From positions 65,782,001 to 65,846,000 of the forward strand of contig OX597819.1 of NCBI GenBank assembly GCA_951406725.2: a stretch of 64,000 bases of DNA, given 5' to 3'. The notes under the pieces were generated by a model. The model saw only the letters and a program-made list of their open reading frames with translations. It was not told the DNA's origin and searched no databases. A program made the position numbers and the translations under genes. Positions 4,560 to 63,300 of the stretch are shown here, in pieces; positions within the stretch are counted from its first letter, which is position 1; each line of letters starts with the position of its first letter. The DNA is from Octopus vulgaris (lineage: Eukaryota).

Positions 4560-4783
4560 TTCTTTACTACCCACAAGGAACTAAACATAGAGTGAACAAA
4601 CAAGGACAGACAAAGGGATTAAGTCGATTACATTGACCCCAGTGCATAACTGGTAATTAATTTATCAACCCCGAAAGGAGGAAAGGCAAAGTCGACCTCT
4701 GGGGAATTTGAACTCAGAACGTAACGGCAGACGAATTACGGCTACGCATTTCGCCTGGCGTGCTAATGATTCTCCCAGTTCGC
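4560..4783 (-). mobile_element. tRNA-derived SINE, family A
   Basis: Reverse complement reads GCGAACTGGGAGAATCATTAGCACGCC...GAGTTCAAATTCC (B-box-like)...GTCGACTTTGCCTTTCCTCCTTTCGGGGTTGATAAATT; homologous to five other copies in the window. Confidence 0.85.
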
Positions 4784-5304: not shown

Positions 5305-5317
5305 TTACTACTACTAC
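5175..5317. repeat. (ATT)n/(ACT)n microsatellite
   Basis: Direct trinucleotide repeats. Confidence 0.95.
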
Positions 5318-5318
5318 C

Positions 5319-5525
5319 AAGGCAGCGAGCTAGCAGAATCGTTAGCACTCCGGGCGAAATGCTTAGCGGCATTTCGTTTGCCGCTACGTTGAGAATTCAA
5401 ATTCCGCCGATGTAGGCTTTGCTTTTCATCCTTTCGGGGTCGATTAAATAACTACAAGTTACGTACTGGGGTCGATGGAATCGACTTAATCCCCTCCCTC
5501 AATCTATCCTTGTAGGAAAAATTTT

Positions 5526-5528
<3 letters not shown>
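5319..5528 (+). mobile_element. tRNA-derived SINE, family A
   Basis: GGCAGCGAGCTAGCAGAATCGTTAGCAC head, AATTCAAATTCC B-box-like, TTTCATCCTTTCGGGGTCGATT body, (ATC)n tail. Confidence 0.85.
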
Positions 5529-5559
<31 letters not shown>

Positions 5560-5575
5560 TATCACTATTATTATT

Positions 5576-6121
5576 GAGTGAGAGAGCAGTGCATGCCATC
5601 AAAGTGACAATTGGGTAAAATATACGAAGCCCATCATGACTACCCGTCTGATAAGGGTACACTAGGCACATGCATCACAACCATATGTGCGCGACATAGT
5701 GATCTCATATCAAGATAAACAGCGCATGACCTTGCAGGTGGGGCCCAGTTAGAATTTTCTTCTGCTCGAGTAGCCCATCCCGCTCAAAGGTCCCTGAATA
5801 AGGATTGTTTAAGGATGTTGAACGAACCACTCATGTTTCCAAAGGTGAATTATCCAAACCTCCAAGAATTCCATTCAACACACGGCTATGATGCTCCCCC
5901 ACTACTTCTGCTCGTGATCAGAGATGCACATATCATCAGTCACTAAGGGACATGCTCAACTGGTTAAGGTCAAACAACTGACAAGCAAATCTGTGGTATT
6001 GAGCAGAATATTTGCTGTAGCCCATCTTTTATACCAAGACAAAACAATGTACATGATAACACTTCCAATCAGTTAAGATCAGAAGCCATGAGACCCACTG
6101 CCTGGTACTGCAACAGGGCAT
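5576..6121 (-). mobile_element. ~550-bp (AAT)n-associated non-coding interspersed repeat
   Basis: Reverse-complement homologue of 28351-28906 and 61831-62386; (ATT)n on both sides. Confidence 0.85.
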
Positions 6122-6167
6122 TTATTATTATTATTATTATTAATATTATTATTATTATTATCATTAC

Positions 6168-6230
<63 letters not shown>

Positions 6231-8601: not shown

Positions 8602-10880
8602 CCGACACTACTCTCGGATCACAACATGATAGAGCTGACCATGTACGGGCCAAAAGAGAGCACGGACATGCAGCCTACAAGAAACCCTCAAAATCTTTCC
8701 AGCTTGAACTACCATAAGGCAAACTGGAAACAAATTGAGAAAGAGATCCTCAAACAAAACTGGCCTAAATGTCTCTCCTCGCCAGACATCGACGTGAAAC
8801 TTCAACAATTCATGTCTGTAATGCAAGCCATATGCTACAAATGTGTCCCAGAGAGAAAGGCCACTGTACACAAGAACAAAATCCCCAGAGAGAGGAAAAT
8901 TTTAATGAGACGGCGTACGAAATTTTCAAATCGCCTAAACAAACAGATTGAAAGCAGTGAAAAGTCCCGCCTAAAAATAAAACTGTTGGAAATCGAAAAA
9001 TGTCTGCAACTCTCCCATGAAAAAGAAAGAGCAGACAAAGAAGCCTGGGCTATAGAAAACATAAAATCTAACCCCAGAGCTTTCTACAGGTATGCCAAAG
9101 AAACAGCTACAGTGCACTGTAGAATAGGGCCACTCCTCGAAAAGGATGGCACACTTACAGGAAAACCAATGAGGGTAAGTGAAATACTGAATGAGCAATT
9201 CAAGAGTGTTTTCACTCTACCCCTTGGGCATCTCCAAATCACCAATCCAACTGACTTTTTTACCACTGCAGATATAAAATCAGAGGCGGCGACGATAGAT
9301 TACATCGATATAAAGGAAGACGATGTAACCAAGGCTATAGATGAAATGAAAACAGACTCAGCTACTGGCCCCGATGGATTCCCAGCAATCCTCCTAAAAG
9401 CATGTAAGAGAGTCCTAGGCAAACTTCCAGGAAAACTGAAGGAAGGTAAAATATGCCCCATTCATAAAGGAGGTAGCAGAACGGAAGCCAAGAACTATAG
9501 ACCTATCTCTCTGACCTCACACATCAGCAAGGTCATGGAACGAATAGTCAGAAGGAAGCTGATCACCTTCCTTGAAGAGAATGACTTGCTGCCCGACACC
9601 CAACATGGTTTCCGACCAGGGAGAAGCTGTTTAACTCAGCTCCTACAACACTATGACTGGGTGCTGAAACGGCTGCTCAACCACTCAAATGTGGAAGTGA
9701 TATATCTCGACTTTGCAAAGGCCTTTGATAAAGTCGATCATGGAATGATATGTCACAAACTGCGTGATCTCAACATAGTTGGAAAACTGGGAGAATGGCT
9801 TCATGACTTTCTGAAGGATAGAAGTCAGGTGGTAGTAGCCAATGGGGCCACCTCCATTAACACACAAATAGTGAGCGGTGTTCCGCAGGGCACTGTTCTG
9901 GGACCACTACTGTTCATAATGGCCCTCTCAGACATGCCCTCAGCCACGCAGAGAGCCACGATCACAAGTTATGCAGATGATACAAAAGTTTCACAGGCAA
10001 TACAGAACCCTGAGGACACTAAACACCTGCAATGTGAGCTGGACGAAATATACAAGTGGGCTGAAAAGAATAGCATGCAGTTCAATGCTGGAAAGTTTCA
10101 AGCTTTATACTATCAGCATGCAAAACTGAATGCAATACCCAATGAATACACTGGACCCGGAGGGATTGCAATCCCAGAGGCACAATCAGTGCGTGACCTG
10201 GGTATTCACATGAGTGATGACGCGACCTTTCATGTACATGTTGCTAAACTGACAATGAAATGCAGACGGCTGGCTGGCTGGATTCTTAGAACCTTTAGAA
10301 CAAGAGAACAAGAAACCATGATGGTCCTCTGGAAGACACTTGTCCTAAGCCACTTTGACTATTGCTCTCAGCTATGGTCACCATCCAGTGTCAAGTTGAT
10401 CACAGAACTTGAGGCGATCCAACGAAGCTACACAAATAAGATAGCCTCTATGCAGAATGTAAGCTACTGGGAAAGACTCAAGAGATTAAAATTATATTCC
10501 CTGGAGCGTAGGCGGGAAAGATATGCCATAATATACATCTGGAAGATCCTGGAGGGAAGTGTCCTGAACTTTGGCATCGAGAGTTACGCAAATGCCAGAA
10601 CTGGGCGCCACTGCGTGGTCCTAGGACTCCAAACCTGCCATCAAGATGTAGGACAAGATTCTGTGATAGCCTGGGCTTCCGAGGCCCACAGCTCTTCAAT
10701 ATCCTCCCGAAGAACCTGAGAGACCTGCATGGGGTGGATACAGATGTCTTTAAAATGAAGCTGGATCTCTTCCTGTCAGGTGTCCCAGATGAACCAACTT
10801 CACGGCAGGAGGGGCAGATGAGGGCAGCTGCATCGAACTCTCTCATGCACCAAATAGCAGTTGCTAGAAAGCCTCCATGA
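8602..10880 (+). pseudogene. LINE ORF2 reverse transcriptase, truncated and frameshifted
   Basis: Motifs [73 protein letters not shown]. Apparent in-frame deletion at ~9415. Frameshift at ~10620, continuing as ...[14 protein letters not shown]...FKMKLDLFLSGVPDEP to a stop at ~10880. Confidence 0.9.
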
Positions 10881-10964
10881 AGTGAAACCGAGTAGCAACA
10901 CCAAATGGCGGTGCCCCAGCATGGCCACAGCTCATAGGCTGAAACTAGAATCAATCAATCAATC
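8602..10964 (+). mobile_element. 5'-truncated CR1/L2-type non-LTR retrotransposon
   Basis: Begins at the end of the AP-endonuclease domain (SDHN), carries a full RT domain and a short 3' UTR, ends in (AATC)n; embedded in (TA)n. Confidence 0.92.
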
Positions 10965-11158: not shown

Positions 11159-11207
11159 GTATATATATACATATGTATATATATATACATATGTATATAT
11201 ATATATA
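10965..11207. repeat. (TA)n microsatellite
   Basis: Direct repeats between the LINE tail and the Helitron array. Confidence 0.95.
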
Positions 11208-12757
11208 CTAGCAGTATCGCCCGGCGTTGCTCGGGTTTGTAAGGGAAATAACTATATAAGCATTTTTAGAGAGTTATAGCCAAAAAATAGCAAAAAAATG
11301 CATTAAAAATTGAAAAAAAAAATTAAGGTAAATTTTTTTTTAAATCGTTGACACATCGTAGATATTTTTAGAGAGTTACTTCCCTTATATAAAAGCGAAA
11401 AAATGCATTAAAATGGAAAAATATGATGGTAAATTTTTTTAAAATCGTAGACTCATCGTAGACGCACGCTAATACCCAGAAGGGCTCGATATGAATCACG
11501 ACTATAAGATACCCGCTTTTGGTTAAACTGCACCGCAAAATGTGGGAGTAGTTAGGAATGTAAATCGTAGGAGACAGACACACAACTTCACTCTTATATA
11601 AAGATGCTTTTTTTTTTCAGTCATAGAGTTAGATTTATGAAGGTCTTCAGTAGAAAATCCTTCGAATTCTGACTCGCTGCTTGATATAATGAAATTCGTA
11701 TCCATTTTTTGTCAGAATTACAAATTTTGAAAACACAATAGGAACAAATTTCGGAAAAAAATCTTCCATAATTCACGGAATTAAAATTACACTTCGATTT
11801 TTGTACAAAACTGTAGTTGAAGTGTTTACGAAGTATAATACGTGTTTTCACGAATGTACTAAAGAGATTTGCTCTGATATTCTCATTTAAATATGAATAG
11901 GTAAATTCGGGCGGCTTGGTAACTATATATAAGTGTCGTCTGTTTATACATAAACACTGTTTCATACTGCAATTATATATACATATATCTATATATAATA
12001 TTATATAATAAAATATATACAGAGTAAAATAAAAACCAATTTACCTTTTCTGTCCGTCCGTGTGTCTTTGCAAATGTGTTGGAATGATAAGTGAGTTGAG
12101 TTTTGGCGCCTTTTTACTAATAACAAACACACACGTGTTTGTATGTAGTTGTATGTAGTTGTATATGTATGTGTATGCGTGTGTGTGAGGAATGACACAC
12201 ACACACTCACGCACGCACACATGTACATCAATGCTTTCGGAGTGATATGTTAAAATATTGAGTTTTCTCGAATTTTGTCTTAATTGGTGGTAAAATTGAA
12301 AGAAATTTTTTATGGCATCACCCACTGAAGTACTCTGAAAAATCTTAGGTAAATTCTAATTGAAGAAATTGTGTGAGGATTAAATGGTTATGTATTTATT
12401 TGTTTCTGTTTGCTGTGTTTTTTTATTTTTTGAGTAGTGGTTTAAATACTTTCAGTTTAGTCTTCCTCAAATCACTCTGTCGCTATTTACTTTCATTTTA
12501 TTCGTTGCCCACTGTGTGTGTGCGTTTGCGTGTGGTGTAAACCAGACTAAGAAAAGCATTTGACACACACACCAGAATGTGAGTTTTCTGTAAATTTTGC
12601 TTAATTGGAGTTTAAATTTTAAAAACTGGACCTGGCATGACGCGATGCATTCTACTCTTAAAATTGCTAGGTAAATTGTAATTGAAGAAATCCTATATTG
12701 TAGATTTCTATAACTCCCAAAGGGAGGCAGGTAAAATCTGCCTTTTATAATAAGAGA
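11208..12757 (-). mobile_element. Non-autonomous Helitron, tandem unit 1 (1550 bp)
   Basis: Minus strand starts TCTCTTATTATAAAAGG and ends CCCGAGCAACGCCGGG hairpin + CGATACTG + CTAG; followed by T on the minus strand. Confidence 0.9.
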
Positions 12758-14301
12758 CTAGCAGTATCGCCCGGCGTTGCTCGGGTTGTAAGGGAAATAA
12801 ATATATAAGCATTTTTAGAGAGTTATAGCCAAAAAATAGCAAAAAAATGCATTAAAAATTGAAAAAAAATTAAGGTAAATTTTTTTTAAATCGTTGACAC
12901 ATCGTAGATATTTTTAGAGAGTTACTTCCCTTATATAAAAGCGAAAGAATGCATTAAAATGGAAAAATATGATGGTAAATTTTTTTAAAATCGTAGACTC
13001 ATCGTAGACGCACGCTAATACCCAGAAGGGCTCGATATGAATCACGACTATAAGATACCCGGTTTTGGTTAAACTGCACCGCCAAATGTGGGAGTAGTTA
13101 GGAATGTAAATCGTAGGAGACAGACACACAACTTCACTCTTATATAAAGATGCTTTTTTTTTTCAGTCATAGAGTTAGATTTATGAAGGTCTTCAGTAGA
13201 AAATCCTTCGAATTCTGACTCGCTGCTTGATATAATGAAATTCGTATCCATTTTTTGTCAGAATTACAAATTTTGAAAACACAATAGGAACAAATTTCGG
13301 AAAAAAATCTCCCATAATTCACGGAATTAAAATTACACTTCGATTTTTGTACAAAACTGTAGTTGAAGTGTTTACGAAGTATAATACGTGTTTTCACGAA
13401 TGTACTAAAGAGATTTGCTCTGATATTCTCATTTAAATATGAATAGGTAAATTCGGGCGGCTTGGTAACTATATATAAGTGTCGTCTGTTTATACACAAA
13501 CACTGTTTCATACTGCAATTATATATACATATATCTATATATAATATTATATAATAAAATATATACAGAGTAAAATAAAAACCAATTTACCTTTTCTGTC
13601 CATCCGTGTGTCTTTGCAAATGTGTTGGAATGATAAGTGAGTTGAGTTTTGGCGCCTTTTTTACTAATAACAAACACACACGTGTTTGTATGTAGTTGTA
13701 TGTAGTTGTATATGTATGTGTATGTGTGTGTGAGGAATGACACACACACACTCACGCACGCACACATGTACATCAATGCTTTCGGAGTGATATGTTAAAA
13801 TATTGAGTTTTCTCGAATTTTGTCTTAATTGGTGGTAAAATTGAAAGAAATTTTTATGGCATCACCCACTGAAGTACTCTGAAAAATCTTAGGTAAATTC
13901 TAATTGAAGAAATTGTGTGAGGATTAAATGGTTATGTATTTATTTGTTTCTGTTTGCTGTGTTTTTTTATTTTTTGAGTAGTGGTTTAAATACTTTCAGT
14001 TTAGTCTTCCTCAAATCACTCTGTCGCTATTTACTTTCATTTTATTCGTTGCCCACTGTGTGTGTGCGTTTGCGTGTGGTGTAAACCAGACTAAGAAAAG
14101 CATTTGACACACACACCAGAATGTGAGTTTTCTGTAAATTTTGCTTAATTGGAGTTAAAATTTTAAAAACTGGACCTGGCATGACGCGATGCATTCTACT
14201 CTTAAAATTGCTAGGTAAATTGTAATTGAAGAAATCCTATATTGTAGATTTGTATAACTCCCAAAGGGAGGCAGGTAAAATCTGCCTTTTATAATAAGAG
14301 A
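12758..14301 (-). mobile_element. Non-autonomous Helitron, tandem unit 2 (1544 bp)
   Basis: Near-identical to unit 1; exact junction AATAAGAGA|CTAGCAGTATCG. Confidence 0.9.
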
Positions 14302-15846
14302 CTAGCAGTATCGCCCGGCGTTGCTCGGGTTGTAAGGGAAATAAATATATAAGCATTTTTAGAGAGTTATAGCCAAAAAATAGCAAAAAAATGCATTAAA
14401 AATTGAAAAAAAATTAAGGTAAATTTTTTTAAAATCGTTGACACATCGTAGATATTTTTAGAGAGTTACTTCCCTTATATAAAAGCGAAAGAATGCATTA
14501 AAATGGAAAAATATGATGGTAAATTTTTTTAAAATCGTAGACTCATCGTAGACGCACGCTAATACCTAGAAGGGCTCGATATGAATCACGACTATAAGAT
14601 ACCCGGTTTTGGTTAAACTGCACCGCCAAATGTGGGAGTAGTTAGGAATGTAAATCGTAGGAGACAGACACACAACTTCACTCTTATATAAAGATGCTTT
14701 TTTTTTCAGTCATAGAGTTAGATTTATGAAGGTCTTCAGTAGAAAATCCTTCGAATTCTGACTCGCTGCTTGATATAATGAAATTCGTATCCATTTTTTG
14801 TCAGAATTACAAATTTTGAAAACACAATAGGAACAAATTTCGGAAAAAATCTCCCATAATTCACGGAATTAAAATTACACTTCGATTTTTGTACAAAACT
14901 GTAGTTGAAGTGTTTACGAAGTATAATACGTGTTTTCACGAATGTACTAAAGAGATTTGCTCTGATATTCTCATTTAAATATGAATAGGTAAATTCGGGC
15001 GGCTTGGTAACTATATATTAGTGTCGTCTGTTTATACATAAACACTGTTTCATACTGCAATTATATATACATATATCTATATATAATATTATATAATAAA
15101 ATATATACAGAGTAAAATAAAAACCAATTTACCTTTTCTGTCCATCCGTGTGTCTTTGCAAATGTGTTGGAATGATAAGTGAGTTGAGTTTTGGCGCCTT
15201 TTTTACTAATAACAAACACACACGTGTTTGTATGTAGTTGTATGTAGTTGTATATGTATGTGTATGCGTGTGTGTGAGGAATGACACACACACACTCACG
15301 CACGCACACATGTACATCAATGCTTTCGGAGTGATATGTTAAAATATTGAGTTTTCTCGAATTTTGTCTTAATTGGTGGTAAAATTGAAAGAAATTTTTT
15401 ATGGCATCACCCACTGAAGTACTCTGAAAAATCTTAGGTAAATTCTAATTGAAGAAATTGTGTGAGGATTAAATGGTTATGTATTTATTTGTTTCTGTTT
15501 GCTGTGTTTTTTTATTTTTTGAGTAGTGGTTTAAATACTTTCAGTTTAGTCTTCCTCAAATCACTCTGTCGCTATTTACTTTCATTTTATTCGTTGCCCA
15601 CTGTGTGTGTGCGTTTGCGTGTGGTGTAAACCAGACTAAGAAAAGCATTTGACACACACACCAGAATGTGAGTTTTCTGTAAATTTTGCTTAATTGGAGT
15701 TAAAATTTTAAAAACTGGACCTGGCATGACGCGATGCATTCTACTCTTAAAATTGCTAGGTAAATTGTAATTGAAGAAATCCTATATTGTAGATTTGTAT
15801 AACTCCCAAAGGGAGGCAGGTAAAATCTGCCTTTTATAATAAGAGA
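14302..15846 (-). mobile_element. Non-autonomous Helitron, tandem unit 3 (1545 bp)
   Basis: Near-identical; exact junctions on both sides. Confidence 0.9.
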
Positions 15847-17378
15847 CTAGCAGTATCGCCCGGCGTTGCTCGGGTTGTAAGGGAAATAAATATATAAGCA
15901 TTTTTAGAGAGTTATAGCCAAAAAATAGCAAAAAAATGCATTAAAAATTGAAAAAAAATTAAGGTAAATTTTTTTTAAATCGTTGACACATCGTAGATAT
16001 TTTTAGAGAGTTACTTCCCTTATATAAAAGCGAAAGAATGCATTAAAATGGAAAAATATGATGGTAAATTTTTTTAAAATCGTAGACTCATCGTAGACGC
16101 ACGCTAATACCTAGAAGGGCTCGATATGAATCACGACTATAAGATACCCGGTTTTGGTTAAACTGCACCGCCAAATGTGGGAGTAGTTAGGAATGTAAAT
16201 CGTAGGAGACAGACACACAACTTCACTCTTATATAAAGATGCTTTTTTTTTTCAGTCATAGAGTTAGATTTATGAAGGTCTTCAGTAGAAAATCCTTCGA
16301 ATTCTGACTCGCTGCTTGATATAATGAAATTCGTATCCATTTTTTGTCAGAATTACAAATTTTGAAAACACAATAGGAACAAATTTCGGAAAAAAATCTC
16401 CCATAATTCACGGAATTAAAATTACACTTCGATTTTTGTACAAAACTGTAGTTGAAGTGTTTACGAAGTATAATACGTGTTTTCACGAATGTACTAAAGA
16501 GATTTGCTCTGATATTCTCATTTAAATATGAATAGGTAAATTCGGGCGGCTTGGTAACTATATATTAGTGTCGTCTGTTTATACATAAACACTGTTTCAT
16601 ACTGCAATTATATATACATATATCTATATATAATATTATATAATAAAATATATACAGAGTAAAATAAAAACCAATTTACCTTTTCTGTCCGTCCGTGTGT
16701 CTTTGCAAATGTGTTGGAATGATAAGTGAGTTGAGTTTTGGCGCCTTTTTACTAATAACAAACACACACGTGTTTGTATGTAGTTGTATATGTATGTGTA
16801 TGCGTGTGTGTGAGGAATGACACACACACACACACTCACGCACGCACACATGTACATCAATGCTTTCGGAGTGATATGTTAAAATATTGAGTTTTCTCGA
16901 ATTTTGTCTTAATTGGTGGTAAAATTGAAAGAAATTTTTTATGGCATCACCCACTGAAGTACTCTTAGGTAAATTCTAATTGAAGAAATTGTGTTAGGAT
17001 TAAATGGTTATGTATTTATTTGTTTCTGTTTGCTGTGTTTTTTTTATTTTTTGAGTAGTGGTTGAAATACTTTCAGTTTAGTCTTGCTCAAATCACTCTG
17101 TCGCTATTTACTTTCATTTTATTCGTTGCCCACTGTGTGTGTGCGTTTGCGTGTGGTGTAAACCAGACTAAGAAAAGCATTTGACACACACACCAGAATG
17201 TGAGTTTTCTGTAAATTTTGCTTAATTGGAGTTAAAATTTTAAAAACTGGACCTGGCATGACGCGATGCATTGTACTCTTAAAAATGGTAGGTAAATTGT
17301 AATTGAAGAAATCCTATATTGTAGATTTGTATAACTCCCAAAGGGAGGCAGATAAAATCTGCCTTTTATAATAAGAGA
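15847..17378 (-). mobile_element. Non-autonomous Helitron, tandem unit 4 (1532 bp)
   Basis: Near-identical with private variants; 5' TC terminus preceded by A on the minus strand (A|T target, no TSD). Confidence 0.9.
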
Positions 17379-20560: not shown

Positions 20561-21623
20561 CATGTGTGTGTGTGTGTAAACTTAGTGTGTCTTTCTCTCT
20601 CCTATAAATTGTTAGTTAATGTAACTTATCATTCTATGAGTCCCTGCTCTCTCATTCTCTCTCTCTCTCTCGATTCGCTTTCTCTCCTTCCATTCTCCCT
20701 CTCTGTTTTCTATTCGTTTACATGTCTTTTTGTCTCTCACTCCTTTTCAGCTTCTGTCACATTTTTACAAAACTTGTTTAGTTACCTTCACTCTGCAGTT
20801 CCCCCCATTTTACACATGCACAAACACACACAAATATTTGAATCAATTACATATCGCTGCATCACATTTTTTACCCTTCTCTCTCTCACGTCCATCCCTC
20901 CATCTATTTATCTCTATATGTCTCACCTACTATGCCATGTGATCACTATCTATCTATCACTTTATTTAAAAATATTTCTTTGTAAACATTTGTTGGTCTT
21001 TGCAATCTGACAATCTCATACCTCTGTCTTTATTTCTCTGTCGCTTACTCTTCCTCTCTCAGATACTCTTTCTCTCACCATTCTCTCCTCTATTGTTATT
21101 AATCCTCGCCACCCCATCAATCTTACAGAGTTCATCTTTATCTCCTATTCTCAATTTCTCTCGTACTTTTATCATCCTCATGTAAATCTAGTTTATCATT
21201 ATTTTCCCCGCAAATTTAAGCCCACACATATATACATATTTGCATTCATACATACATGCAAACATATATACACATATTAGTTTTGACGTTGTTGTATATT
21301 TCAAATGCACTTACAAATGTCCTGCGACATACACATGCATTCATCTCTATATGTGTGAACGTGTTTGTACATACATATTCGCGTGTATATACACACCACA
21401 CAAGCTCACAAAAAACGTGCACACACAAACATGCACACGAATATACGTCTACAATATTATCAAGGCAGATTTACATTTTCCTCAAAAATACGTCACACAT
21501 GCACGTATATATATATATATATTTATATTTCAAAAATTGAGGGTAAAATTAATTAATTATTAATCAATTTCACCAAGTATTCAGTATGCAAAGGGACCAT
21601 TTAAGGCGAATTCAAATTATTAC

Positions 21624-21918
21624 ATTATATAAAAGGGCTTAGTAAAATAAATTACTTTGCCACATACTGAACTCATTAGAAATAGCAGCTAAAAAAATTT
21701 TTTTTTAAACTATTTCTAATACTTAAAGAAAATCTCTCTCATATATAGTGTTTGCTCACTTCAACTCACCCCCATACTTTCGTGAGTTGAAGTGAGCAAA
21801 CACTATATATGAGAGAGATTTTCTTTAAGTATTAGAAATAGTTTAAAAAAAATTTTTTTAGCTGCTATTTCTAATGAGTTCAGTATGTGGCAAAGTAATT
21901 TATTTTACTAAGCCCTTT

Positions 21919-21926
<8 letters not shown>
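21624..21926. repeat. Near-perfect long inverted repeat (146/145-bp arms, 12-bp loop)
   Basis: 21624-21769 is the reverse complement of 21782-21926 except for one indel in a T/A run. Confidence 0.95.
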
Positions 21927-21959
<33 letters not shown>

Positions 21960-27365: not shown

Positions 27366-27980
27366 AATATATATATATATATATATATACACATATGTAA
27401 TTATGTGTACACACCACACACACATACAAACGTATGTATGTATATGTATGTGCGTATACACACAAAGAAAGGCACAGATTAAAAAGTATGGTCGCTATGG
27501 TTTTAATCCCATCTTCCTACGCTTTCCCCACTTACGGGGGTGCAGATATGCAGGTTACGTTTATCTGAGTATCGGAAGTAATAATTATGTCGTTTAAGTC
27601 CACCTTTAAATGTCCTTTACGTTTACCCTACATAATGTTTTGCGATACGAACTCTGTGGTGTGAAGTATTCAACTCTATAAGCTTGTGTATTCATGGAAA
27701 TGTGAGCCTAAATGAAGGGAAATAATGCGTCAAAATGAACAGCACTGACTTCGAACTGCTTACACAGAATCCATCATCCATTTTTAATCCATAAGGCGAT
27801 CAGTATTGTCTCTTGTGGCTACAAGCATACCGGTTCTAAGAATCGTCTTAGACAGGTAAAAATCAACAAGCACCATTTAGACATAAACCGAAAATTTAGA
27901 GATATTAGCACTATGATGATGATGATAATAATAATAATGATAATAATAATAATAATAATAACAACAACAACAACAATAAC

Positions 27981-28043
<63 letters not shown>

Positions 28044-28057
28044 TATTATTATTATTA

Positions 28058-28226
28058 TAGGGGCTGCAATAAGGGTGGAGCACTTGCAGAAAAAGTACTG
28101 CTTGGAACTGCTCGAATACTCCGGAGGGTGTTCGAAAATTAAGAGATGTTACCTTAGTTCACTGGTAGTGAACAGCTGCCACTGTAGTACATCTCCAGCG
28201 TTAGAAGCTGTGCAAAGACAACAACA
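28058..28226 (+). mobile_element. Short 3' fragment of an R4/Dong-type LINE
   Basis: Encodes (with one frameshift) IRVEHLQK-VLLGTARILRRVFEN*, the typical C-terminus of RLE-type R4/Dong ORFs, then a 3' UTR and (AAT)n. Confidence 0.7.
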
Positions 28227-28304
<78 letters not shown>

Positions 28305-28350
28305 AAGAAGAAGAAGAAATATATAAATATAATAAGTATGAATATAATAA

Positions 28351-28906
28351 ATGCCCTGATGCAGTATCAGGCAGTGGCTCTCATGGCTTCTGATCTTAAC
28401 TGATTGGAAGTGTTATCATGTACATTGATTTGTCTTGGTATAAAAGATGTGCTACAGCAAATATTCTGCTTAATACCACAGATTTGCTTGTTAGTTGTTT
28501 GACCGTAACCAGTTGAGCATGTCCCTTAGTGGCTTATGAAATTGGCATCTCTGATCACGAGCAGAAGTAGTGGGGAAGTATCATAGCCATGTGTTGCAAG
28601 GGATTCTTTGGGGTTTGAATAATTCACCTCTGAAAACATGGGTGTTTCGTTCAACATCCTTAAACAACCCTTATTCAGGGACCTTTTGAGCAGGATGGGT
28701 TACTCGAGCAGAAGAAAATTCTAACTGGGCCCCAACTGCAAGGTCATGTGCTGTTTATCTTGATATGAGATCACCATGTCGTGCACACATGGTTGTGATG
28801 CATGAGCCTAGAGTACCCTTATCAGACGGGTAGTAATGATGGATATACTGGGCTTCGTATATTTAACCCCAGTGTCAGTTTGATGGCATGCACTGCTCTC
28901 TCACTC
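28351..28906 (+). mobile_element. ~555-bp (AAT)n-associated non-coding interspersed repeat
   Basis: ATGCCCTGATGCAGTATCAGG...GCACTGCTCTCTCACTC followed by (AAT)n; homologous to three other copies. Confidence 0.85.
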
Positions 28907-28951
<45 letters not shown>

Positions 28952-28952
<1 letters not shown>

Positions 28953-29731
28953 TGCAATGAGAGCCCTATAAGATTTGTAAATAAATAAATACAGATTGAT
29001 ACAGGTTTTAGCACCTATAGAGTACAAATCAAGACATGACAGAATTGGCCAATGTCTACATTGGATAATGTGTCGGCAGTATAAAATCAAAACTGCTGAC
29101 AAATGGTAGAAGCACCACCCTGAGGCTGTAACTGAGGGAGAAAATGTAACGACTCTTTGAGATTTCCCAGTATATACAGACCGGACCCTCAAAGCAAATA
29201 AATCAGGTATTGTTGTAAATGACCAAAACAATAAAGTCTGTTTATTGATTGACATGAGCTTACCCTGTGACTATAATATCTCGGCAAAAGAATTTGATAA
29301 GCTCAGAAAATATAAAGATTTGCTAATCGAAATCGAAAAGATGTGGCATCTCAAGACTGTTACTATACCAGTTATATAAGGAGCACTCGGAATGATCAAA
29401 AAAGGAACTAAAAATTATTTAAGAATGATCTCTGGATTACCATCCATACAGGAAGTGCAAAAGATTGTCTTTACTGCAAAGTCACACGTATTGAGATAAG
29501 AATTGTCGTTGTGAATTTTCTTTCTTTTTCCCATTTATTTACTTTGTTTACATTTTTTCTTCTTATTTTTTTCTCTATCTTTCTTCCCCTTTTTTCTATC
29601 ACATGACTTTGCGAATGAACAATCTGGTGTGTTTATTTTAATAGCCGACCAATGTATGCTGTGCGTTTGTCTGCACTAGGTGTCAGGTAGACACTCCGCA
29701 AGAAATGGAAACGAAATTGAAAGATGACAAA
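28952..29731 (+). mobile_element. 5'-truncated R4/Dong-type LINE (restriction-like endonuclease domain, pseudogenised)
   Basis: 29005-29514 translates LAPIEYKSRHDRIGQCLHW...DFPVYTDRTLKANKSGIVV...LLIDMSLPCD...KEFDKLRKYKDL...MW...IPVI*GALG with in-frame stops; (AAT)n on both sides. Confidence 0.85.
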
Positions 29732-32164: not shown

Positions 32165-32376
32165 ATTTCAAGTTTGGTCACTAGGCCCACAGATTCAGAG
32201 AGGGGTTAAATCGATCGCATCAATCCCAGTGCATTACTGCTACTTATTTTATAGACCCCCGGAAGGATCAAAGGCAAAGTCTACCTCGGCGTATTTGAAC
32301 TCATGAAGCAAAGACGGACGAAAATGCCGGTACGCTTTGTTTTCCGGCGAGTTAACGAATCTGCCAGGCGGACACC
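32165..32376 (-). mobile_element. tRNA-derived SINE, family A (diverged)
   Basis: AAAGGCAAAGTCTACCTCGGCGTATTTGAACTC and flanks homologous to 4560-4783. Confidence 0.75.
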
Positions 32377-33599: not shown

Positions 33600-34800
33600 C
33601 TGCAGGAAACGTAGTTGCGGAGGAATTACGGTTTAAGGAAAGAAATAACAGAAATGATAAGGAATCGCAATAGAGGAAGAGAATTCGTTTTAAGTCGAAC
33701 CAAATGCGGCCTTGGCATGAATAAAACAGATCGAAAATTAAATTGAACGGGGATCAAGGGAAGGTTAGGAAGAGATGAAAAAAATGCACGCAAAGTTATT
33801 CACGAATGACATAAGTAGTTGAGACAAAGTGTAGTCGCAGTTCATGCAAAATTATCAAAATTCTATGCTAAAAAAAATGAATTGTACTGGCAGAATAGAA
33901 TTCCATTGAAATCAGAAAAGCTTGTTTGTGGTTCCAGAGAGTAAATGGAATGAGGCGGTTGTTCCGGTGGCAGAAGGGAGTCGTGAATTTTCAAGTGGGA
34001 TTTGGAATTAGCCAACTTAGAAATTGTTAAAAGAGTTCGAGGAAGAAACGGAAGGCGCAGAACTAGGCGGTGTTGAAGGATTTTAGTTCAAGTGATTTTC
34101 ATCTCTAAGAGCATCTCATATTAGCTAAACACTGTCGTACAATGGCAAATTGTGCCATTCTGGACGACTACTGAAAGAAGTGTGTTGTGTGTTAAGGATA
34201 TTGATTAGGAAAACAGTTTCTAATTTTAGGTCGATAACTTCCTTCCCTTAATGAGCAAGTCTTTCACGAGTGATTATAATTAGAAAAGCCGTATGGAAAA
34301 GTTGAGGTTAAAGGAATTTTTCCAATGGAAAGAAAATACGATATCGGAAGATAAGCAGAGGCACAACAGATCAGCTATTGATTGAAAAGTAAAGGAAACA
34401 GTGATAACGACCTCTAGGAGGAGACTGACAAACCTGGAGATGAATTAGGTAGATTATAAAAATATCTATGATATGGTAGACATAGAAGAAAGACAAAATC
34501 ATGGATGTCTATATTTTGCAGATAACATCAGAGCATTTAATCTTCGGCTACATGAGACACTGAACACCGAAATAGTAGTTGACACTGTCATTGGGAAAAG
34601 GTAACATAAAGCGAGAAATATTTCAGGGCAACATTATGACCGCTTTTATCTCTTACAGCTTTTATGCGACTGTCTAGGCGAGGGCGATGGAAAGCTAAAC
34701 CATTTACTCTCTACGGATGCTATGAAGATTTTTTCTAAAGCGAGGAACAGTTCAACTGTGTAGTAAATAAGGAGATAATGTTTTCTGACACTTTTCGATT
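33600..34800 (+). mobile_element. Possible highly decayed LTR-retrotransposon (Gypsy-like integrase) relic
   Basis: Only weak peptide hints (LFVVPESKWNEAV at ~33920; PYGKVEV at ~34290); purine-rich, coding-like composition. Confidence 0.2.
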
Positions 34801-34831
34801 TGGAGTTTGGACTACCAATGTGCGCAGCATA

Positions 34832-35053
34832 TGAGAGAGGGTGCCGAAAAGTCCCTAGCTTTAGCTAAAAGAAAATACAGGAGGATAGGTATATTATGAT
34901 TCTATTCAAAATATTCCACTCTCAGATTCACGTACTTATTGCAGCGATCCTTCAGTTTTTCAAAGCCCTGTAAAAGAACTTGGAAGGATCAGCCTCCAAC
35001 GAGGCCATTCGCGACAACCTTAAAGCCAGGAAATTTTCAGCACCCCATCCTCG
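34832..35053 (-). mobile_element. Mariner-derived MITE (~220 bp)
   Basis: Imperfect TIRs GGGTGCCGAAAAGTCCCTAGCTTT / AAAGCCAGGAAATTTTCAGCACCC; minus strand retains GFEKLKDRCNKYVNLRVEYFE*. Confidence 0.7.
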
Positions 35054-37256: not shown

Positions 37257-37833
37257 GAGCTCATTTACTGCTGAGTTGCTTTACTGCTGAGCTCCTTTAC
37301 ACCTGAGCTCTTTTACTGCTGAGCTCCTTTACTGTTGAGCTCTTTTGCAGCTGAACTCATTTACAGCTGAGCTCCTTTACAGCTCAGCGCTTTTACTGCT
37401 GAGCTCTTTTACTGCTGAGCTCCTTTACTGCTGAAATTCTTTACTGCTGAGCTCCTTTACTGTTGAACTCCTTTACAGCTGAGCTCTTTTACTGCTGGGC
37501 TCCTGTATAGCTTCGCTCCTTTACTGCTGAGCTCCTTTACTGCTGAGCTCCTTTACTGCTGAGCTCCTTTACAGCTGTGCTACTTTACAGCTGAACTCCT
37601 TTACAGCTGAGCTCATTTACTGTTGAGCTCATTTACTGCTGAGCTCATTTACTGCTGAACTCCTTTAGTGCTGAGCTTCTTTATAGCTGAGGTCCTTTAC
37701 TGCTGAACTCCTTTACTGCTGAGCTCCTTTACTGCTGAGCTCTTTTACAACTGAGCTCCTTTACTGCTGAGGTCCTTTACAGCTGAGCTCCTTTACTGCT
37801 GAGCTCCTTTACTGATGAGCTCCTTTACAGCTG
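37257..37833. repeat. 16-bp minisatellite (~36 units), consensus ACTGCTGAGCTCCTTT
   Basis: Contiguous diverged 16-mers without unique spacers. Confidence 0.92.
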
Positions 37834-38451: not shown

Positions 38452-38522
38452 ATATTAATAATAATAACTTATTTAATCTTTCTATAATATGTAATTTTTC
38501 TAAATGGTATAATTTAATTTTT

Positions 38523-39346
38523 GGATCTTTTCCTTTTGAACGGCAGACAATTTCTAGTTAACTAAATACTTTAAAACTTCGTATATTGGTAGAATGTGTC
38601 AAAATAAAACATGTTTTTCTCTTGGCTTTCTTGAGAAAATTGTAATTTGTTTGTTTAACGTAGTTTAATTTTTCGAATTTTAACCAATCCTATGCTCTCT
38701 TTTGAGCTAAAATCATTTGCTGCGTCTAAAACTGAGACAACATCCTGTCACTAACCCTAAACCTCCCCTAACCCTAACCCTAAATTATTCTTTCTTAATT
38801 GTTAAATTAATTTAATTGTTACGAGTGTAAAAAAAAACGAAAGCAATGGAAAATAATTTAAACAATTAACAAACAAAATAATTCTATAATTTTATACACA
38901 CGCTTTCCGTAACACACGCTTTCCGTAACACACGCTTTCCGTTTACGTACGGAAAGCGTGTGTATAAAATTATAGAATTATTTTGTTAATTGTTTAAATT
39001 ATTTTCCATTGCTTTCGTTTTTTTTACACGCGTAACAATTAAATTAATTTAACAATTAAGAAAAAAATTTAGGGTTAGGGTTAGGGGGAGGTTTAGGGTT
39101 AGTGACAGGATGTTGTCTCAGTTTTAGACACAGCAAATGATTTTGGTTCAATGGAGGTAATCGATTGGTTAAAATTGCCGAAATGCTCGGATTTTCAGAC
39201 GAACTATCGTACAAACTATAGAATTTTCTCAATAAAACCAAAAGAAAATGATGTTTTATAAACACATTCTACCAGTATACGAAGTTTAAAACTTTTTAAT
39301 TACCTAGAAATTATGTTACAAACTGCCGTTCAAAAGGAAGAGATCC
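38523..39346. mobile_element. 824-bp foldback non-autonomous DNA transposon (Merlin- or MULE-like)
   Basis: Termini GGATCTTTTCCTTTTGAACGGCAG / CTGCCGTTCAAAAGGAAGAGATCC; exact 8-bp TSD TAATTTTT; arms complementary to the centre; internal CCCTAA/TTAGGG units. Confidence 0.9.
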
Positions 39347-39970
39347 TAATTTTTCATTATTGAATTGATAAAAGGTGTTTTTTTCTAATATATATATATG
39401 TTATGATGATTTGATATAGTTGCAGACTTAATGGTTATTTATTCACCAACTGTCCAAATCACCAACATGTCATCCAACGATATCCCTTCTTTATAACTAG
39501 TACGACTCTCTGTATACTACATGGCTGCGCATACGATACTCTTCTGGTATCTCCAGCACTCATGCGTATTTATACATTTCGCAACCGTTCACTTTTCCTT
39601 TCACGGCGGTGTTCGACTTCCACCACAACAATATATATTTGTGTGTGTGTGTGGGGGGGGCTCTTATATATATTGATAATAAGGAGAATAAAGAATGTGA
39701 ACATTCAAACTTTGTTTATTTCCAGTTAGTTTATTCATAATAATAGACCGACACGTGTTTCGATAGCACCAACTGCATATAATGTTGTATGTACATATGC
39801 TGCAACTGCACACGCTCAAGTGCCAAGAATAAACTATAACACCGGGTGGGAGTTAAACGAAGTTTATCAAGAAAGGAACCATTATGTTACATCACATTAG
39901 AAGAAACCAGCCTTGGCATTTTACTTAGAGAAATTCGATATCTGCTTGGATATCATATCCCTCCACTTAT

Positions 39971-47663: not shown

Positions 47664-47719
<56 letters not shown>

Positions 47720-47939
47720 TGGCGGCGAGCTGGTAGAATCGATAGTACGCTGGACGAAATGCTTAGCGGTATTTCGCCCGTCGTTACTTTCTGAATTCAA
47801 ATTCCGCCGAGGTCTACGTTGCCTTTCATCCTTTCGGCGTCGATTAAATAAGTACCAGTTACGCACTGGAGTCGATTTAATCAACTAGTCCCTTCCCTTC
47901 CAATTTGAGGCCTTGTGCCTCCAATAGAAAGGATTATTA
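47720..47939 (+). mobile_element. tRNA-derived SINE, family A
   Basis: GGCGGCGAGCTGGTAGAATCG...AATTCAAATTCCGCCGAGGTC...GCCTTTCATCCTTTCGG. Confidence 0.88.
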
Positions 47940-48727
47940 TGAAGATCAACTAACCGGTCTGTTTCAGAGAAATTTCGGGCCTGCGCCTATGAATAATTTC
48001 CAGAAATCCCTTGCCAGGCAGTGCTACATAGGAGCGCTGCCCTTTTGGGATAAACTTTACAGGCACGGAAGTGCCGTCAGCCGGGTCTGCTCGAGGTGCA
48101 CCCTGAATGATGAAACCGTTTTGCATGCTTTAGTCTAGTGTCCGAGTATTGCTGACCTGTGGATTTATGTCGAACACCTGCTGTGGAGTGTAGGGCGAAT
48201 CCGGCTATCAGCTGAAACCATTGAGAAGATTGTCGCGCCGCCCTCATTTAGCCGGGAGGGACAGGCAATTTTTAATTGTCTGGTGGCTGTAGAGAAGGAG
48301 GTGGTATGGTGGACTCGTTTGAAAGGGCTAAAAACAGACACTTTCCTCTTTGGCCAAGCCCACATCAACGTCTTAAGGAAATTGGGGGTGTTGAGGAAAG
48401 TGTTGCCTTGTAGCAAGTTTTTTGAAAGGTGGGTGAATGTTGGAAGAATGTGCCGTGTGAAAGGACTAATTCTGAGCATGCACCTGTAAAAAGGAAATCA
48501 AAGGAGAAGGGCTATTGCCCTATTGTTCAGACACCCGTGGCTTTTGTGAGTTTTTCCACGAGGTTCTTAAAGCGCCTCCCCTATTGAGAGTTTTAATTTG
48601 TTCAATTTTTATTGTAATTACATTGTGTGCACGCGGAAAACCCATTGTATCGTTCTGATTTCGTATTTTATGTTGTTGCACGTCATTTAATGATTGTATG
48701 TGAGCCCTTGTGGCTAATAAAAGAATA

Positions 48728-54622: not shown

Positions 54623-54781
54623 ATATCACTTGCACTTATTCTATTTATTTATTTATTTTTGAAGCCTGAGGAATAAAAGAGCAAATTAATGAGGCCTGAA
54701 TTTAATTCATATTATGAAATAGAAATTTAAGATCTGTAAATCATTAAGGTACTCTACATCTCCATTATTGATGCTCTTTGT

Positions 54782-55000
54782 AAGGTGGTGAGCTGGCAGA
54801 ATCGTTAGCACGTCGAGCGAAATGCTTAGCGGTATTTTGTATGTCTTTGCGTTCTGAGTTCAAATTTCACCGAGATTGACTTTGCTTTTCATCCTTTCGG
54901 GATCGATGAAACGAGCACCAGTCAGGCAATGGGGATGATGTAATCGACTGTTGCCTCCTCGAAAAAAATTCAGGCCTTGTTCCTGTAGCAGAAAATGTTA
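54782..55000 (+). mobile_element. tRNA-derived SINE, family A
   Basis: GGTGGTGAGCTGGCAGAATCGTTAGCACG...GAGTTCAAATTTC...TTCATCCTTTCGGG. Confidence 0.85.
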
Positions 55001-55207
55001 TTTTTGCTCTTTTTGTAAGATTCCAAAATGTTAAATCGACTGAAGATTTAAAAAGCCTGAAACTATACAAAGAAGCATCGATGTTGTGACTAGACCTACT
55101 AAATATTGCAGTCTAATCTTCCCAAGAGAACGTAGTACACTCTGAAATAAATAATATATTAGGTAATTAAGCGAGGAAAAGAATACCGGGTGTTTTAAAA
55201 AATTATT

Positions 55208-61738: not shown

Positions 61739-61830
61739 TACTACTACTATCACTACTAATGATGATAATAGCAATAAGAATTAGAAGAAGAAGATGAAGA
61801 ATGACGATGATGATGATAGTGATGATAACT

Positions 61831-62386
61831 CCCCTGATGCAGTATCAGGCAGAGGCTCTCATGGCTTCTGATCTTAACTGATTGGAAGTGTTATCATATA
61901 CATTGTTTTGTCTTCGTATAAAGGATGGGCTACAGCAAATATTCTGCTTAACACCACAGATTTGCTTGTCAGTTGTTTGACCTTAACCAGTTGACCATGT
62001 CCCTTAGTGTTTGACGATTTGTACATCTCTGACCACGAGCAGAAGTAGTGGGGGAGCATCATAGCCGTGTGTTGACAGGAATTCTTAGCGGTTTGGATAA
62101 TTCACCTTTGGAAATATCGGTGTTTCGTTCAACATCCTTAAACAATCCTTATTCAGGGACCTTTAGAACGGGATGAACTACTCGACCGGAAGAAAATTCT
62201 AACTGGGCCCCACCTGCAAGGTCATGCGCTGTTTATCTTGATATGAGATCACCATGTCACGCACATTTCGTTGTGATGCATGTGCCTGGTGTACCCTTAT
62301 CAGACGGGTAGTAATGATGGGTATACTAGGCTTCGTATATTTTACCCCAGTGTCACTTTGATGGCATGCACTTCTCTTTCTCACTC
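61831..62386 (+). mobile_element. ~555-bp (AAT)n-associated non-coding interspersed repeat
   Basis: Full-length homologue of 28351-28906 with (AAT)n tail. Confidence 0.85.
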
Positions 62387-62396
62387 AATAATAATG

Positions 62397-62434
<38 letters not shown>

Positions 62435-62503
62435 GAGGAGAATAATAATAATAATAATGATAAGAAGAAGAAGAAGAATGACGACGAGGATGATGATGAT
62501 GAT

Positions 62504-62790
62504 CCTGATACAGTGCAAGGCAGTGACTCTCACGGCTTCTGATCTTAACTGATTGGAAGTGTTATCATGTGCATTGTTTTGTCTTGATATAAAAGACGGG
62601 CTATAGCAAATATTCTGCTCAATACCACAGATTTGCTTGTCAGATGTTTGACCTTAACCAGTTGAGCATATCCCTTAGTGGCTGACGATATGTGCATCTC
62701 TAATCACGAGAAGAAATAGTGGGGGAAGCATCATAGCCATGTGCTGGGAGGGATTCTTTGGAGTTTGGATAATTTGCCTTTGAAGACATT
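62504..62790 (+). mobile_element. Second, 3'-truncated copy of the (AAT)n-associated repeat
   Basis: Same 5' start; homology stops at ~62790. Confidence 0.8.
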
Positions 62791-62829
62791 GTCTAGTCAA
62801 TCACGTGATCACACGATTACCCAATTCTG

Positions 62830-63300
62830 TCATACACTTCCATTGTATAAAAGCTTCAATTCTGTTATAAGATGTATTCTTTCTTGCCTAAATCTGAATA
62901 TTTCCAGTCCATGTAATTAATTATTGCTAACCAAGCTTCACATATTATGCAGACCCTCAGCGATGCCCAGTTATTCACCTTGATTGCAATTATTTTTGCA
63001 CTGTTTTTAGCGAAAATGTTTCTCTCCTATACTCCAATAATAATTGATTTAGTCTTGGCTTTGAGTCTTGTACTTTTCATCGATTTCTGTTTCATGCCTA
63101 CTTAATCCTTTACCAAATAATCTGAGCTTGGAGTCAAACTGTTTTTTAACTACTAATTGCTGGTAAGGGCTCAATATTTCGTTCTGCAACCATAATATGC
63201 TGCCAAGTACATTAAAAGCTTGTAAGTCAGTTCTGTTAGTGGCGCGGTTCAATCATTTTTTAAAAAGTATCTCAACAGATTCTCTTCAGAACTTACAGCT
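62830..63300 (-). mobile_element. Possible decayed R4/Dong RT-thumb fragment
   Basis: Minus-strand hints (EIDEKY...AKN...NNWA...IIN) resemble the R4-type AINTWAV...IINW region; heavily frameshifted. Confidence 0.3.

What the first reader, a model, noticed from the sequence alone, without database searches (positions are those of the whole stretch)
5576..6121. Non-coding ~555-bp element confined to (AAT)n tracts, with a fixed structured 5' end and no tRNA head
Seen: four copies (5576-6121, 28351-28906, 61831-62386, 62504-62790) start at the same point, and all sit in AAT/GAT repeats in one polarity. The 5' end folds into two hairpins (CCTGAT-GCAGT-ATCAGG and CTTCTGATC-TTAACT-GATTGGAAG), followed by a TATAAAAG. 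No ORF, TIR or A/B box is visible. Inference: a sequence-specific non-autonomous retroelement mobilised by a (TAA)n-targeting R4/Dong enzyme, with a ribozyme or unusual promoter defining its 5' end. I could not see clear 3' homology to the two Dong fragments here.
Basis: partly seen in the sequence, partly recalled or inferred. Interest (0 to 1): 0.7.

Follow-up and report, generated by a model that had tools for sequence, protein, structure and literature searches.

The report
Headless octopus retroposon targeting AAT repeats
A 556-base non-coding repeat found in octopus DNA sits in one orientation inside AAT microsatellites, in one place between two pieces of Dong-like jumping genes, and is likely pasted there by their enzyme; the self-cutting RNA proposed for its start was not found.

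Summary
The repeat is real: four copies, 86-93% alike, three full length, without ORF, terminal inverted repeat or tRNA head. Six of eight ends abut AAT/GAT tracts in one polarity (background under 1%). Copy 2 lies between two Dong-like LINE ends in one tract, on the same strand. Public runs of five organism labels hold it, and two Octopus bimaculoides gene models contain it. In translated outside copies, full 5' starts (2 of 2), 3' ends (3 of 3) and internally starting copies (3 of 4) lie next to such tracts. That pattern fits target-primed reverse transcription into (TAA)n. The ribozyme idea is not supported: no Rfam match, no shared HDV-like or hammerhead fold, and the first hairpin is mismatched in most copies. 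Only the second hairpin is constant. TATAAAAG lies 89 bases inside. No homology to either Dong 3' UTR was found. Best reading (0.55): a headless non-autonomous retroposon mobilised by a Dong/R4-type enzyme; the partner is inferred, not shown. It is so abundant that it probably exists unnamed in octopus repeat libraries, which I could not search.

The parts
5576..6121 (-). Copy 1, full length (546 bp; 9-bp and 1-bp deletions), AAT tract 5' (6124-6229) and AAT/GAT tract 3' (5528-5575)
28351..28906 (+). Copy 2, full length (556 bp), between two Dong-like ends
61829..62386 (+). Copy 3, full length (558 bp), GAT-rich tract 5', AAT tail 3'
62504..62790 (+). Copy 4, first ~287 bases only; starts in the tail tract of copy 3; broken end not in a tract
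28387..28412 (+). Second hairpin (predicted 10-bp stem, 6-base loop), invariant in all four copies
28355..28371 (+).
28439..28446 (+). TATAAAAG, 89 bases inside the element; cannot set the first base
27915..28056 (+). (GAT/AAT/AAC)n tract upstream of Dong-like end A, with a short inverted (TAT)n run at the junction
28058..28226 (+). Dong-like end A: last ~28 codons (frameshifted) plus ~80-base 3' UTR, then AAT tail; protein match weak (17 aa, E 0.55), label rests on the motif
28227..28350 (+). (AAT)n(AAG)n and degenerate tract between end A and copy 2
28907..28952 (+). (AAT)15 between copy 2 and Dong-like end B
28953..29731 (+). Dong-like end B: decayed C-terminal endonuclease region (61% to a 1216-aa RT protein, E 3e-62) plus ~215-base 3' UTR, then AAT tail to 29755
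62387..62503 (+). Mixed AAT/GAG/AAG/GAT tract joining copy 3 to copy 4 head to tail

Best explanation
It is a 556-base protein-less repeat without a tRNA head that sits in one orientation inside AAT microsatellites and is likely copied through an RNA and pasted by the enzyme of a Dong/R4-type LINE. Shown: the repeat, its fixed ends, its flanks, its place between two Dong-like ends on the same strand, its lack of ORF, head and terminal repeats. Inferred: (1) an RNA of the AAT-sense strand is made, probably by read-through from neighbouring transcription or a weak internal promoter; (2) the Dong restriction-like endonuclease nicks the (TTA)n strand of a tract and the reverse transcriptase primes on the RNA 3' end, which carries a predicted 6-bp hairpin 16 bases before the (AAU)n tail; (3) most copies are completed to the same first base, some stop early and join the upstream tract; (4) target duplications are hidden in the tract (the phase allows 2, 5, 8... 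bases); (5) tails of earlier insertions are new targets, giving stacks such as end A - copy 2 - end B and copy 3 - copy 4. Most likely origin: an internally deleted derivative of a Dong family that is not in this window.
For: Both flanks are tract, in one polarity: 6 of 8 ends; the best-supported 5' loose end is (ATA)n in X24 (168 reads), X1 (143) and X3 (189 contigs), and it is not among the six rows listed for X23. A tail alone cannot explain the upstream tract. Of 15 protein hits to one read-through frame, 14 are chance translations of other copies: 3 of 3 that reach the 3' end continue into Asn runs, 2 of 2 with the 5' start follow Asn or Met runs, and 3 of 4 that start internally (bases 89, 110, 422) follow an Asn-rich run within 6 residues. 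Copy 2 and both Dong-like ends share tract and strand. Dong elements target TAA repeats (PMC3812793, passages); O. vulgaris has 51 Dong-R4 families, 92.7 Mb, and only 10.8 kb of 'other DNA transposons' (PMC13282606 supplement). Joints returning exactly to the first base (28488 to 28350 in X23, X24, X1; a similar one from 28480 in X3) fit template jumps at a fixed RNA 5' end (known for R2, PMC3414825 abstract).
Against: No similarity to either Dong 3' UTR beyond shuffles and none to Dong protein N-termini or the full profile. No HDV-like fold at the 5' end, although B. mori Dong has one that cleaves at the 5' junction (PMC3774820, passages). The only truncated copy in the window lacks its 3' half, the reverse of what this mechanism makes. 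Depth across the element is flat, with no rise towards the 3' end. 1 of 4 internal starts has no tract before it; Asn may be AAC; P0233 is a gene model and may be spliced. A tRNA-like SINE family of the window also sits beside microsatellites in 4 of 5 copies, though of differing motifs. 8 of 15 AAT/GAT tracts of the window touch neither the element nor a Dong end by my distance rule.
Confidence: 0.55

Rival explanations
1. Same kind of element, but mobilised by an RTE (or other APE-type) LINE: an internally deleted RTE derivative whose AAT tail is self-made, with the upstream tract arising from target duplication, slippage or loose AT-rich preference.
For: RTE is the commonest source of ORF-less bipartite derivatives (PMC5786205, parts 1-3 of 5); RTE is the largest LINE group of O. 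vulgaris (106 Mb) and octopus RTE-2_OV ends in a microsatellite (PMC9115989 section 6). A second sequence shares only the middle part 28456-28622 in RNA reads, as RTE-derived middles are shared among SINEs.
Against: Upstream tracts are long and of one motif and polarity in full and internally starting copies; no RTE piece was seen beside any copy, Dong-like ends were.
Confidence: 0.2
2. A non-coding passenger or solo end repeat of a Penelope-like element (retrozyme type), with a decayed or split hammerhead in the middle.
For: Penelope-like elements prefer microsatellites and occur in Octopus (PMC8557442, passages). The majority of the window copies has hammerhead core words in type III order with a 5-bp stem III (1 of 2000 shuffles, thresholds set after seeing it). 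Earlier notes on this genome report many such elements (unchecked).
Against: Stems I and II have 2 bp, none of the four single copies meets that arrangement, CATG words are frequent (6-10 against about 5 expected), no Rfam hammerhead match, no inverted arms in the window, the partial duplications seen repeat the 5' part, and no pile-up of ends at the predicted cut.
Confidence: 0.1
3. A DNA-level element: non-autonomous microsatellite-targeting transposon without terminal repeats (CryptonV-like), or a solo LTR.
For: Flat depth and mostly full-length copies; blunt-looking junctions; some CryptonV families insert into microsatellites (PMC8869645, passage); the ends can be read TG...CA and a TATA word is present.
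Against: TG...CA needs a fixed extra A upstream that a pure (TAA)n target does not supply; internally starting copies abut tracts; the O. vulgaris annotation lists 10.8 kb of other DNA transposons and 0.77% LTR elements.
Confidence: 0.08
4. The polarity is reversed: the end with the hairpins is the 3' end, followed by an (ATT)n/(ATC)n tail, and copy 4 is an ordinary 5'-truncated copy.
For: Copy 4 keeps that end and lacks the other, and its broken end is outside any tract; the 28488-28350 joint could be a short copy inserted at a neighbour's tail.
Against: Outside copies starting at bases 89, 110 and 422 after tract-like runs, one running on to near base 535; Dong-like ends carry the tail on the AAT strand; the AAT-sense strand folds better than the other in all three full copies (z -0.9/-2.0/-0.7 against 2.2/0.6/0.3); a weak Dong-like piece abuts the break of copy 4 and may have disrupted it.
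Confidence: 0.07

Closest known systems
R2 SIDE of Drosophila willistoni (529 bp; PMC3414825, abstract and section 5)
   Same: Short, ORF-less, no RNA-gene head, sits at the target of a site-specific LINE with a restriction-like endonuclease, mostly precise 5' junction
   Different: SIDE has 64% and 81% identity to its partner's 5' and 3' UTR and a working HDV-like ribozyme; here neither was found, the target is a dispersed microsatellite and the copy number is far higher
Dong of Bombyx mori, DongAg, DongBg (PMC3812793 and PMC3774820, passages)
   Same: Inserted in TAA repeats with tract on both sides; Dong-like ends share tract and strand with copy 2
   Different: Dong is autonomous (RT plus endonuclease) and has a 5' ribozyme; this element has no ORF, no such fold and no match to the two local Dong 3' UTRs
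EhSINE1 of Entamoeba histolytica (PMC2996970, passages)
   Same: 500-600 bp, non-coding, no clear tRNA head or A/B boxes, depends on a LINE (that EhLINE1 is R4-like is recalled)
   Different: EhSINE1 shares about 70 bp of 3' end with EhLINE1, has visible target duplications and internal repeats, and prefers T-rich sites rather than one microsatellite
Bipartite RTE/Ingi/Vingi derivatives such as Bov-A, RIME, RTESINE (PMC5786205, parts 1-3 of 5)
   Same: Headless, ORF-less, microsatellite tail, probably polymerase II
   Different: Defined by homology to both UTRs of a partner, untested here; not known for a tract upstream
Octopus SINEs OR1, OR2, OK (Ohshima and Okada 1994; seen only as cited in PMC4824008 and PMC4758252, passages)
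   Same: Abundant short octopus retroposons

Membership tests
SINE (tRNA, 7SL, 5S or snRNA head) | RNA-gene-derived head with internal promoter | tested here: not met
   No Rfam match at gathering score in the window nor a meaningful one at E<10 for copies 1 and 2; ARAGORN none; A/B patterns none in 4 copies, both strands
Dong-mobilised element | (TAA)n on both sides, same strand as Dong | tested here: met
   6 of 8 ends; loose ends in 3 of 4 runs; same tract and strand as ends A and B
Dong-mobilised element | 5'-truncated copies joined to the target tract | tested here: inconclusive
   3 of 4 internal starts in translated outside copies follow Asn-rich runs; protein-level only, one may be spliced; none in the window
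SIDE / bipartite non-autonomous LINE | 3' end homologous to the partner's 3' UTR | tested here: inconclusive
   Not met against the 2 Dong UTRs in the window; O. vulgaris has 51 Dong-R4 families, whose DNA I could not obtain
SIDE / bipartite non-autonomous LINE | 5' end homologous to the partner's 5' UTR | not testable with these tools
   No full-length octopus LINE DNA available; no ORF-start remnant by profile
SIDE / Dong | HDV-like ribozyme at the 5' junction | tested here: not met
   Relaxed descriptor: one hit each in copies 1 and 2 at different places, none at the start, 10 of 40 shuffles also hit; Rfam none; cleavage itself not testable
Non-autonomous element | No coding capacity | tested here: met
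   Stops in all frames of all copies; no Pfam match in six frames of copy 3; 15 hits among 1.84 billion proteins for one frame, none with a recognisable enzyme by eye
MITE / TIR transposon | Terminal inverted repeats | tested here: not met
   No inverted repeat of 7 bp or more joins the ends; only a 6-bp subterminal pair
Solo LTR | TG...CA ends with 4-6-bp target duplication | tested here: inconclusive
   TG and CA can be picked, but the 5 bases outside differ in the same way in copies 1 and 2; duplications are hidden in the tract
Helitron | 5' TC and 3' CTRR with hairpin | tested here: not met
   Neither strand has these ends (definition recalled)
Penelope-like element / retrozyme | Hammerhead ribozyme | tested here: inconclusive
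   Core words only in the majority sequence, 2-bp stems I and II, in no single copy; Rfam none
Penelope-like element / retrozyme | Partial tandems of the 3' part or inverted arms | tested here: inconclusive
   None in the window; listed joints duplicate the 5' part, 446 joints were not shown
CryptonV-type DNA transposon | Ends shared with a tyrosine-recombinase element | not testable with these tools
   No genome or library available
R4/Dong clade (for fragments A and B) | Single ORF with RT and C-terminal restriction-like endonuclease, clade by tree | tested here: inconclusive
   B matches C-termini of ~1200-aa RT proteins at 61%; hits are unnamed, no tree was built, the name Dong rests on recalled motifs and the AAT tail

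The most novel reading that the evidence does not exclude
A very abundant microsatellite-targeted passenger of Dong that shares no sequence with any Dong family and has neither a polymerase III head nor a known ribozyme: it would be recognised through its (UAA)n tail pairing with the nicked target, and its fixed 5' end would be set by an undescribed processing structure centred on the invariant second hairpin. This would be the first ORF-less satellite of the Dong/R4 microsatellite-targeting LINEs in the papers I searched, and a natural test of how relaxed these enzymes are.
Probability: 0.12. Interest if true: 0.7.

Novelty: new variant of a known kind. Interest (0 to 1): 0.38.

Why it matters
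Kojima 2018 (PMC5786205) lists only RTE, Ingi, Vingi and R2 as sources of ORF-less two-part derivatives (a CR1 case was added later, PMC6740152, seen as a search listing only). A Dong-dependent one at roughly 10^4-10^5 copies (inferred) would extend this to microsatellite-targeting LINEs. It would name part of the 250 Mb of unclassified SINEs in the O. vulgaris annotation, and help explain why octopus AAT tracts carry stacked insertions. Its 556 bases would be a minimal RNA for asking what the Dong enzyme needs in cis. As it stands it is a repeat family with a probable, unproven partner.

Tried and rejected
No whole genome is held. Pattern scans found no copy in viral contigs or prokaryote genomes; in metagenomes none and one chance match inside a bacterial gene (33, 37). 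No Dong relative in viral contigs. Rfam: nothing at gathering score, only low-complexity noise at E<10. HDV-like, hammerhead, twister and A/B-box patterns: nothing shared by the copies. A type III hammerhead layout in the majority sequence was set aside: thresholds were set after the fact, stems are 2 bp, no copy has it. RNAalifold of three copies gave a covariation term of +4.36 and 1 compensatory pair of 168 (85); three sequences give little power. A by-eye likeness of one frame to Dong N-termini was not borne out by a profile of 24 long proteins; two tblastn hits overlapping copy 2 had E 0.34 and 0.83 (69). In one search one internal match to the ORF of end B beat all but 2-3 of 100 shuffles in copies 2 and 3 but not copy 1; among 24 comparisons I take it as chance. 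The protein P0002 found no solved structure. P0245 (weak hit, 54-residue tandem repeat) was dropped as unrelated. RNA reads lie equally on both strands, so they say nothing on strand or level. Six element motifs found no paper. The transcriptome files of PMC9115989 could not be read as text; two files were not searched and two were too large, so a published copy there is not excluded. The sigma-70 scan is irrelevant to an animal. Outside reads over the 3' part of copy 3 were not obtained, so a partner sharing only the last 40-100 bases remains untested.

Full report
Observation. A search of copy 2 against the window finds three further copies and nothing else of note. Over the element the four are 85.6-93.0% identical. 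Copies 1-3 are full length; copy 4 ends after about 287 bases. The starts agree within three bases and the three full 3' ends are identical, CTCACTC followed by AAT in the same phase. All frames are closed. There is no Pfam match in six read-through frames of copy 3, no terminal inverted repeat, no tRNA, no A/B box pattern and no Rfam match.

Flanks. Six of eight ends have at least 60% AAT/GAT triplets in the adjacent 24 bases; 0.5-0.8% of the window's 24-mers do. The misses are the degenerate 5' flank of copy 2 and the broken end of copy 4. The tract is always AAT on the element's sense strand. Outside data agree: laid on copy 2, the 5' loose end is (ATA)n in X24 (168 reads), X1 (143 contigs) and X3 (189 contigs), agreement 0.61-0.70; it is not among the six rows shown for X23. 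One caution: a tRNA-like SINE family of the window also lies beside microsatellites in 4 of 5 copies, but of several motifs.

Host and abundance. Fourteen of 24 listed runs hold half or more of the sampled words, under five organism labels. Of 15 protein hits, two are O. bimaculoides gene models, and the best named hit for the window's CR1-like ORF is the octopod Argonauta, so the window is very likely from an octopus. Summed contig depth is in the millions against 27-103 for single long contigs. The tool warns that this is no copy number, so 10^4-10^5 copies is an order-of-magnitude inference. Copy 2 differs from the read majority at about 34 of 556 places (my count from the 40 rows shown), close to the SINE/LINE burst at distance 0.065 in O. 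vulgaris (PMC13282606, parts 1-2 of 3 and the supplement read).

Dong-like neighbours. Copy 2 lies in one long tract between two LINE ends on the same strand. End B (28953-29731) is 61% identical to the C-terminus of a 1216-residue reverse-transcriptase protein (E 3e-62; 255 bits with a profile). End A (28058-28226) has only the last motif (17 residues, E 0.55) and a tail. The hits are unnamed and I built no tree, so the name Dong rests on recalled motifs and on the target. Dong elements target TAA repeats (PMC3812793, passages), and O. vulgaris has 51 Dong-R4 families, five with recent copies.

Polarity and mechanism. One read-through frame of copy 3 found 15 proteins among 1.84 billion; 14 are chance translations of other copies, and their neighbours can be read. 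Three of three that reach the 3' end run into Asn repeats. Two of two with the 5' start follow Asn or Met repeats. Four start inside the element without a frameshift to explain it, at bases 89, 110, 110 and 422, and three of these follow an Asn-rich run within six residues. Rows left out of that count: P0234, P0236, P0237, P0242 (alignment begins at or next to the first residue), P0235, P0241, P0243, P0247 (upstream residues fit another frame or a diverged copy, by eye), P0245 (unrelated). Shortened copies joined to the tract are what target-primed reverse transcription leaves, and they show that the upstream tract is target, not part of the element. The evidence is thin: Asn can be AAC, and P0233 may be spliced. 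Joints that return exactly to the first base from 28488 (X23, X24, X1) and from about 28480 (X3) fit template jumps at a fixed 5' end, as known for R2 (PMC3414825, abstract and section 5). Against this reading, copy 4 has lost its 3' half and depth along the element is flat.

The 5' end. It did not hold up. A relaxed HDV-like descriptor gave unrelated single hits in two copies, none at the start, and hit 10 of 40 shuffles. The first 116 bases fold no better than shuffles, with one exception in a shorter window for copy 4. The first hairpin is broken in copies 1 and 4 and in 1307 of 1361 reads of X23. The second hairpin is invariant and lies in a 35-column invariant run (p 0.015), which is mild evidence of constraint. 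RNAalifold shows no covariation, with three sequences. The majority sequence folds better than shuffles on the sense strand (z -3.1), single copies less so (-0.7 to -2.0). TATAAAAG is 89 bases inside. RNA reads show no place where many molecules begin or end and no strand bias. Earlier notes on hammerheads in this genome (unchecked) led me to test one: core words in type III order occur in the majority sequence (1 of 2000 shuffles, thresholds chosen afterwards), with 2-bp stems and in no single copy.

Comparison. It works like a SIDE or EhSINE1: short, ORF-less, headless, at the target of a LINE with a restriction-like endonuclease. Membership is not shown, because the defining homology to a partner is missing for the two partners tested and untestable for the rest. 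It is not a tRNA SINE, a MITE or a Helitron. An RTE partner is the main rival (PMC5786205, abstract and parts 1-3 of 5; PMC9115989, passages and section 6). Penelope-like (PMC8557442, passages) and CryptonV-like (PMC8869645, passages) readings are weaker. OR1, OR2 and OK were seen only as citations.

Novelty. Ten searches found no description of this element or of a non-autonomous Dong passenger. Earlier notes of this scan hold no look-alike. Repbase, Dfam and the O. vulgaris library were out of reach, and supplements of PMC9115989 were unreadable or unsearched. At this abundance it is almost surely in de novo libraries, perhaps among the 1279 unclassified SINE families. Verdict: a real family, probably a Dong-dependent headless retroposon (0.55; about 0.75 for a LINE-mobilised retroposon of any partner), with no support for a ribozyme. 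New variant of a known kind, interest 0.38.

Noticed in passing
window 28350-28488: A head-to-tail duplication of the first 139 bases is spanned by 652 reads in X23 and 455 in X24, about a third of the local depth, yet its DNA form lies at the depth of single contigs in X3 (record 11) and at depth 513 in X1. One or few such loci would be strongly expressed; a circular RNA is not needed since the joint exists in DNA.
   Followed up: partly
window 28456-28622: RNA reads of another sequence share only this middle part (321 and 231 reads enter at 28456, 210 and 205 leave at 28622, with two different continuations). It may be an exonised piece (an AG acceptor lies at 28456-28457) or a second family sharing a middle domain.
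   Followed up: partly
window 62820-63086, minus strand: Very decayed Dong-like stretch (tblastn E 0.002 for one of 111 queries, profile E 2.2) abutting the broken end of copy 4 in the opposite orientation.
   Followed up: partly
window 8602-10900: 5'-truncated CR1-like LINE with an open RT frame of 705 codons between (TA)n tracts; 87% to P0113, best named hit Argonauta hians at 56%.
   Followed up: partly
window 11207-17378: Four head-to-tail copies of a ~1545-bp unit, 97-99% alike, inserted in (TA)n, with internal ~99-bp repeats; the start resembles Helitron/Helentron-type ends (recalled).
   Followed up: no
window 21621-21929 and 38496-39373: Two long palindromes (310 bp at 95%, about 880 bp at 80%, the second with three 16-bp repeats at its centre), both ending beside (TA)n.
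   Followed up: no
window 5310-5499, 47717-47938, 54780-55002, 4615-4783, 32201-32367: Five copies of a tRNA-like SINE family; four lie beside microsatellites of differing motifs. Two more families at 47181/60390/36167 and 17692/63531/30623.
   Followed up: no
window 37257-37833: 16-bp minisatellite, 36 copies.
   Followed up: no
window 34146-34840 and 48070-48500: Faint reverse-transcriptase-like and zinc-knuckle-like LINE remnants.
   Followed up: no
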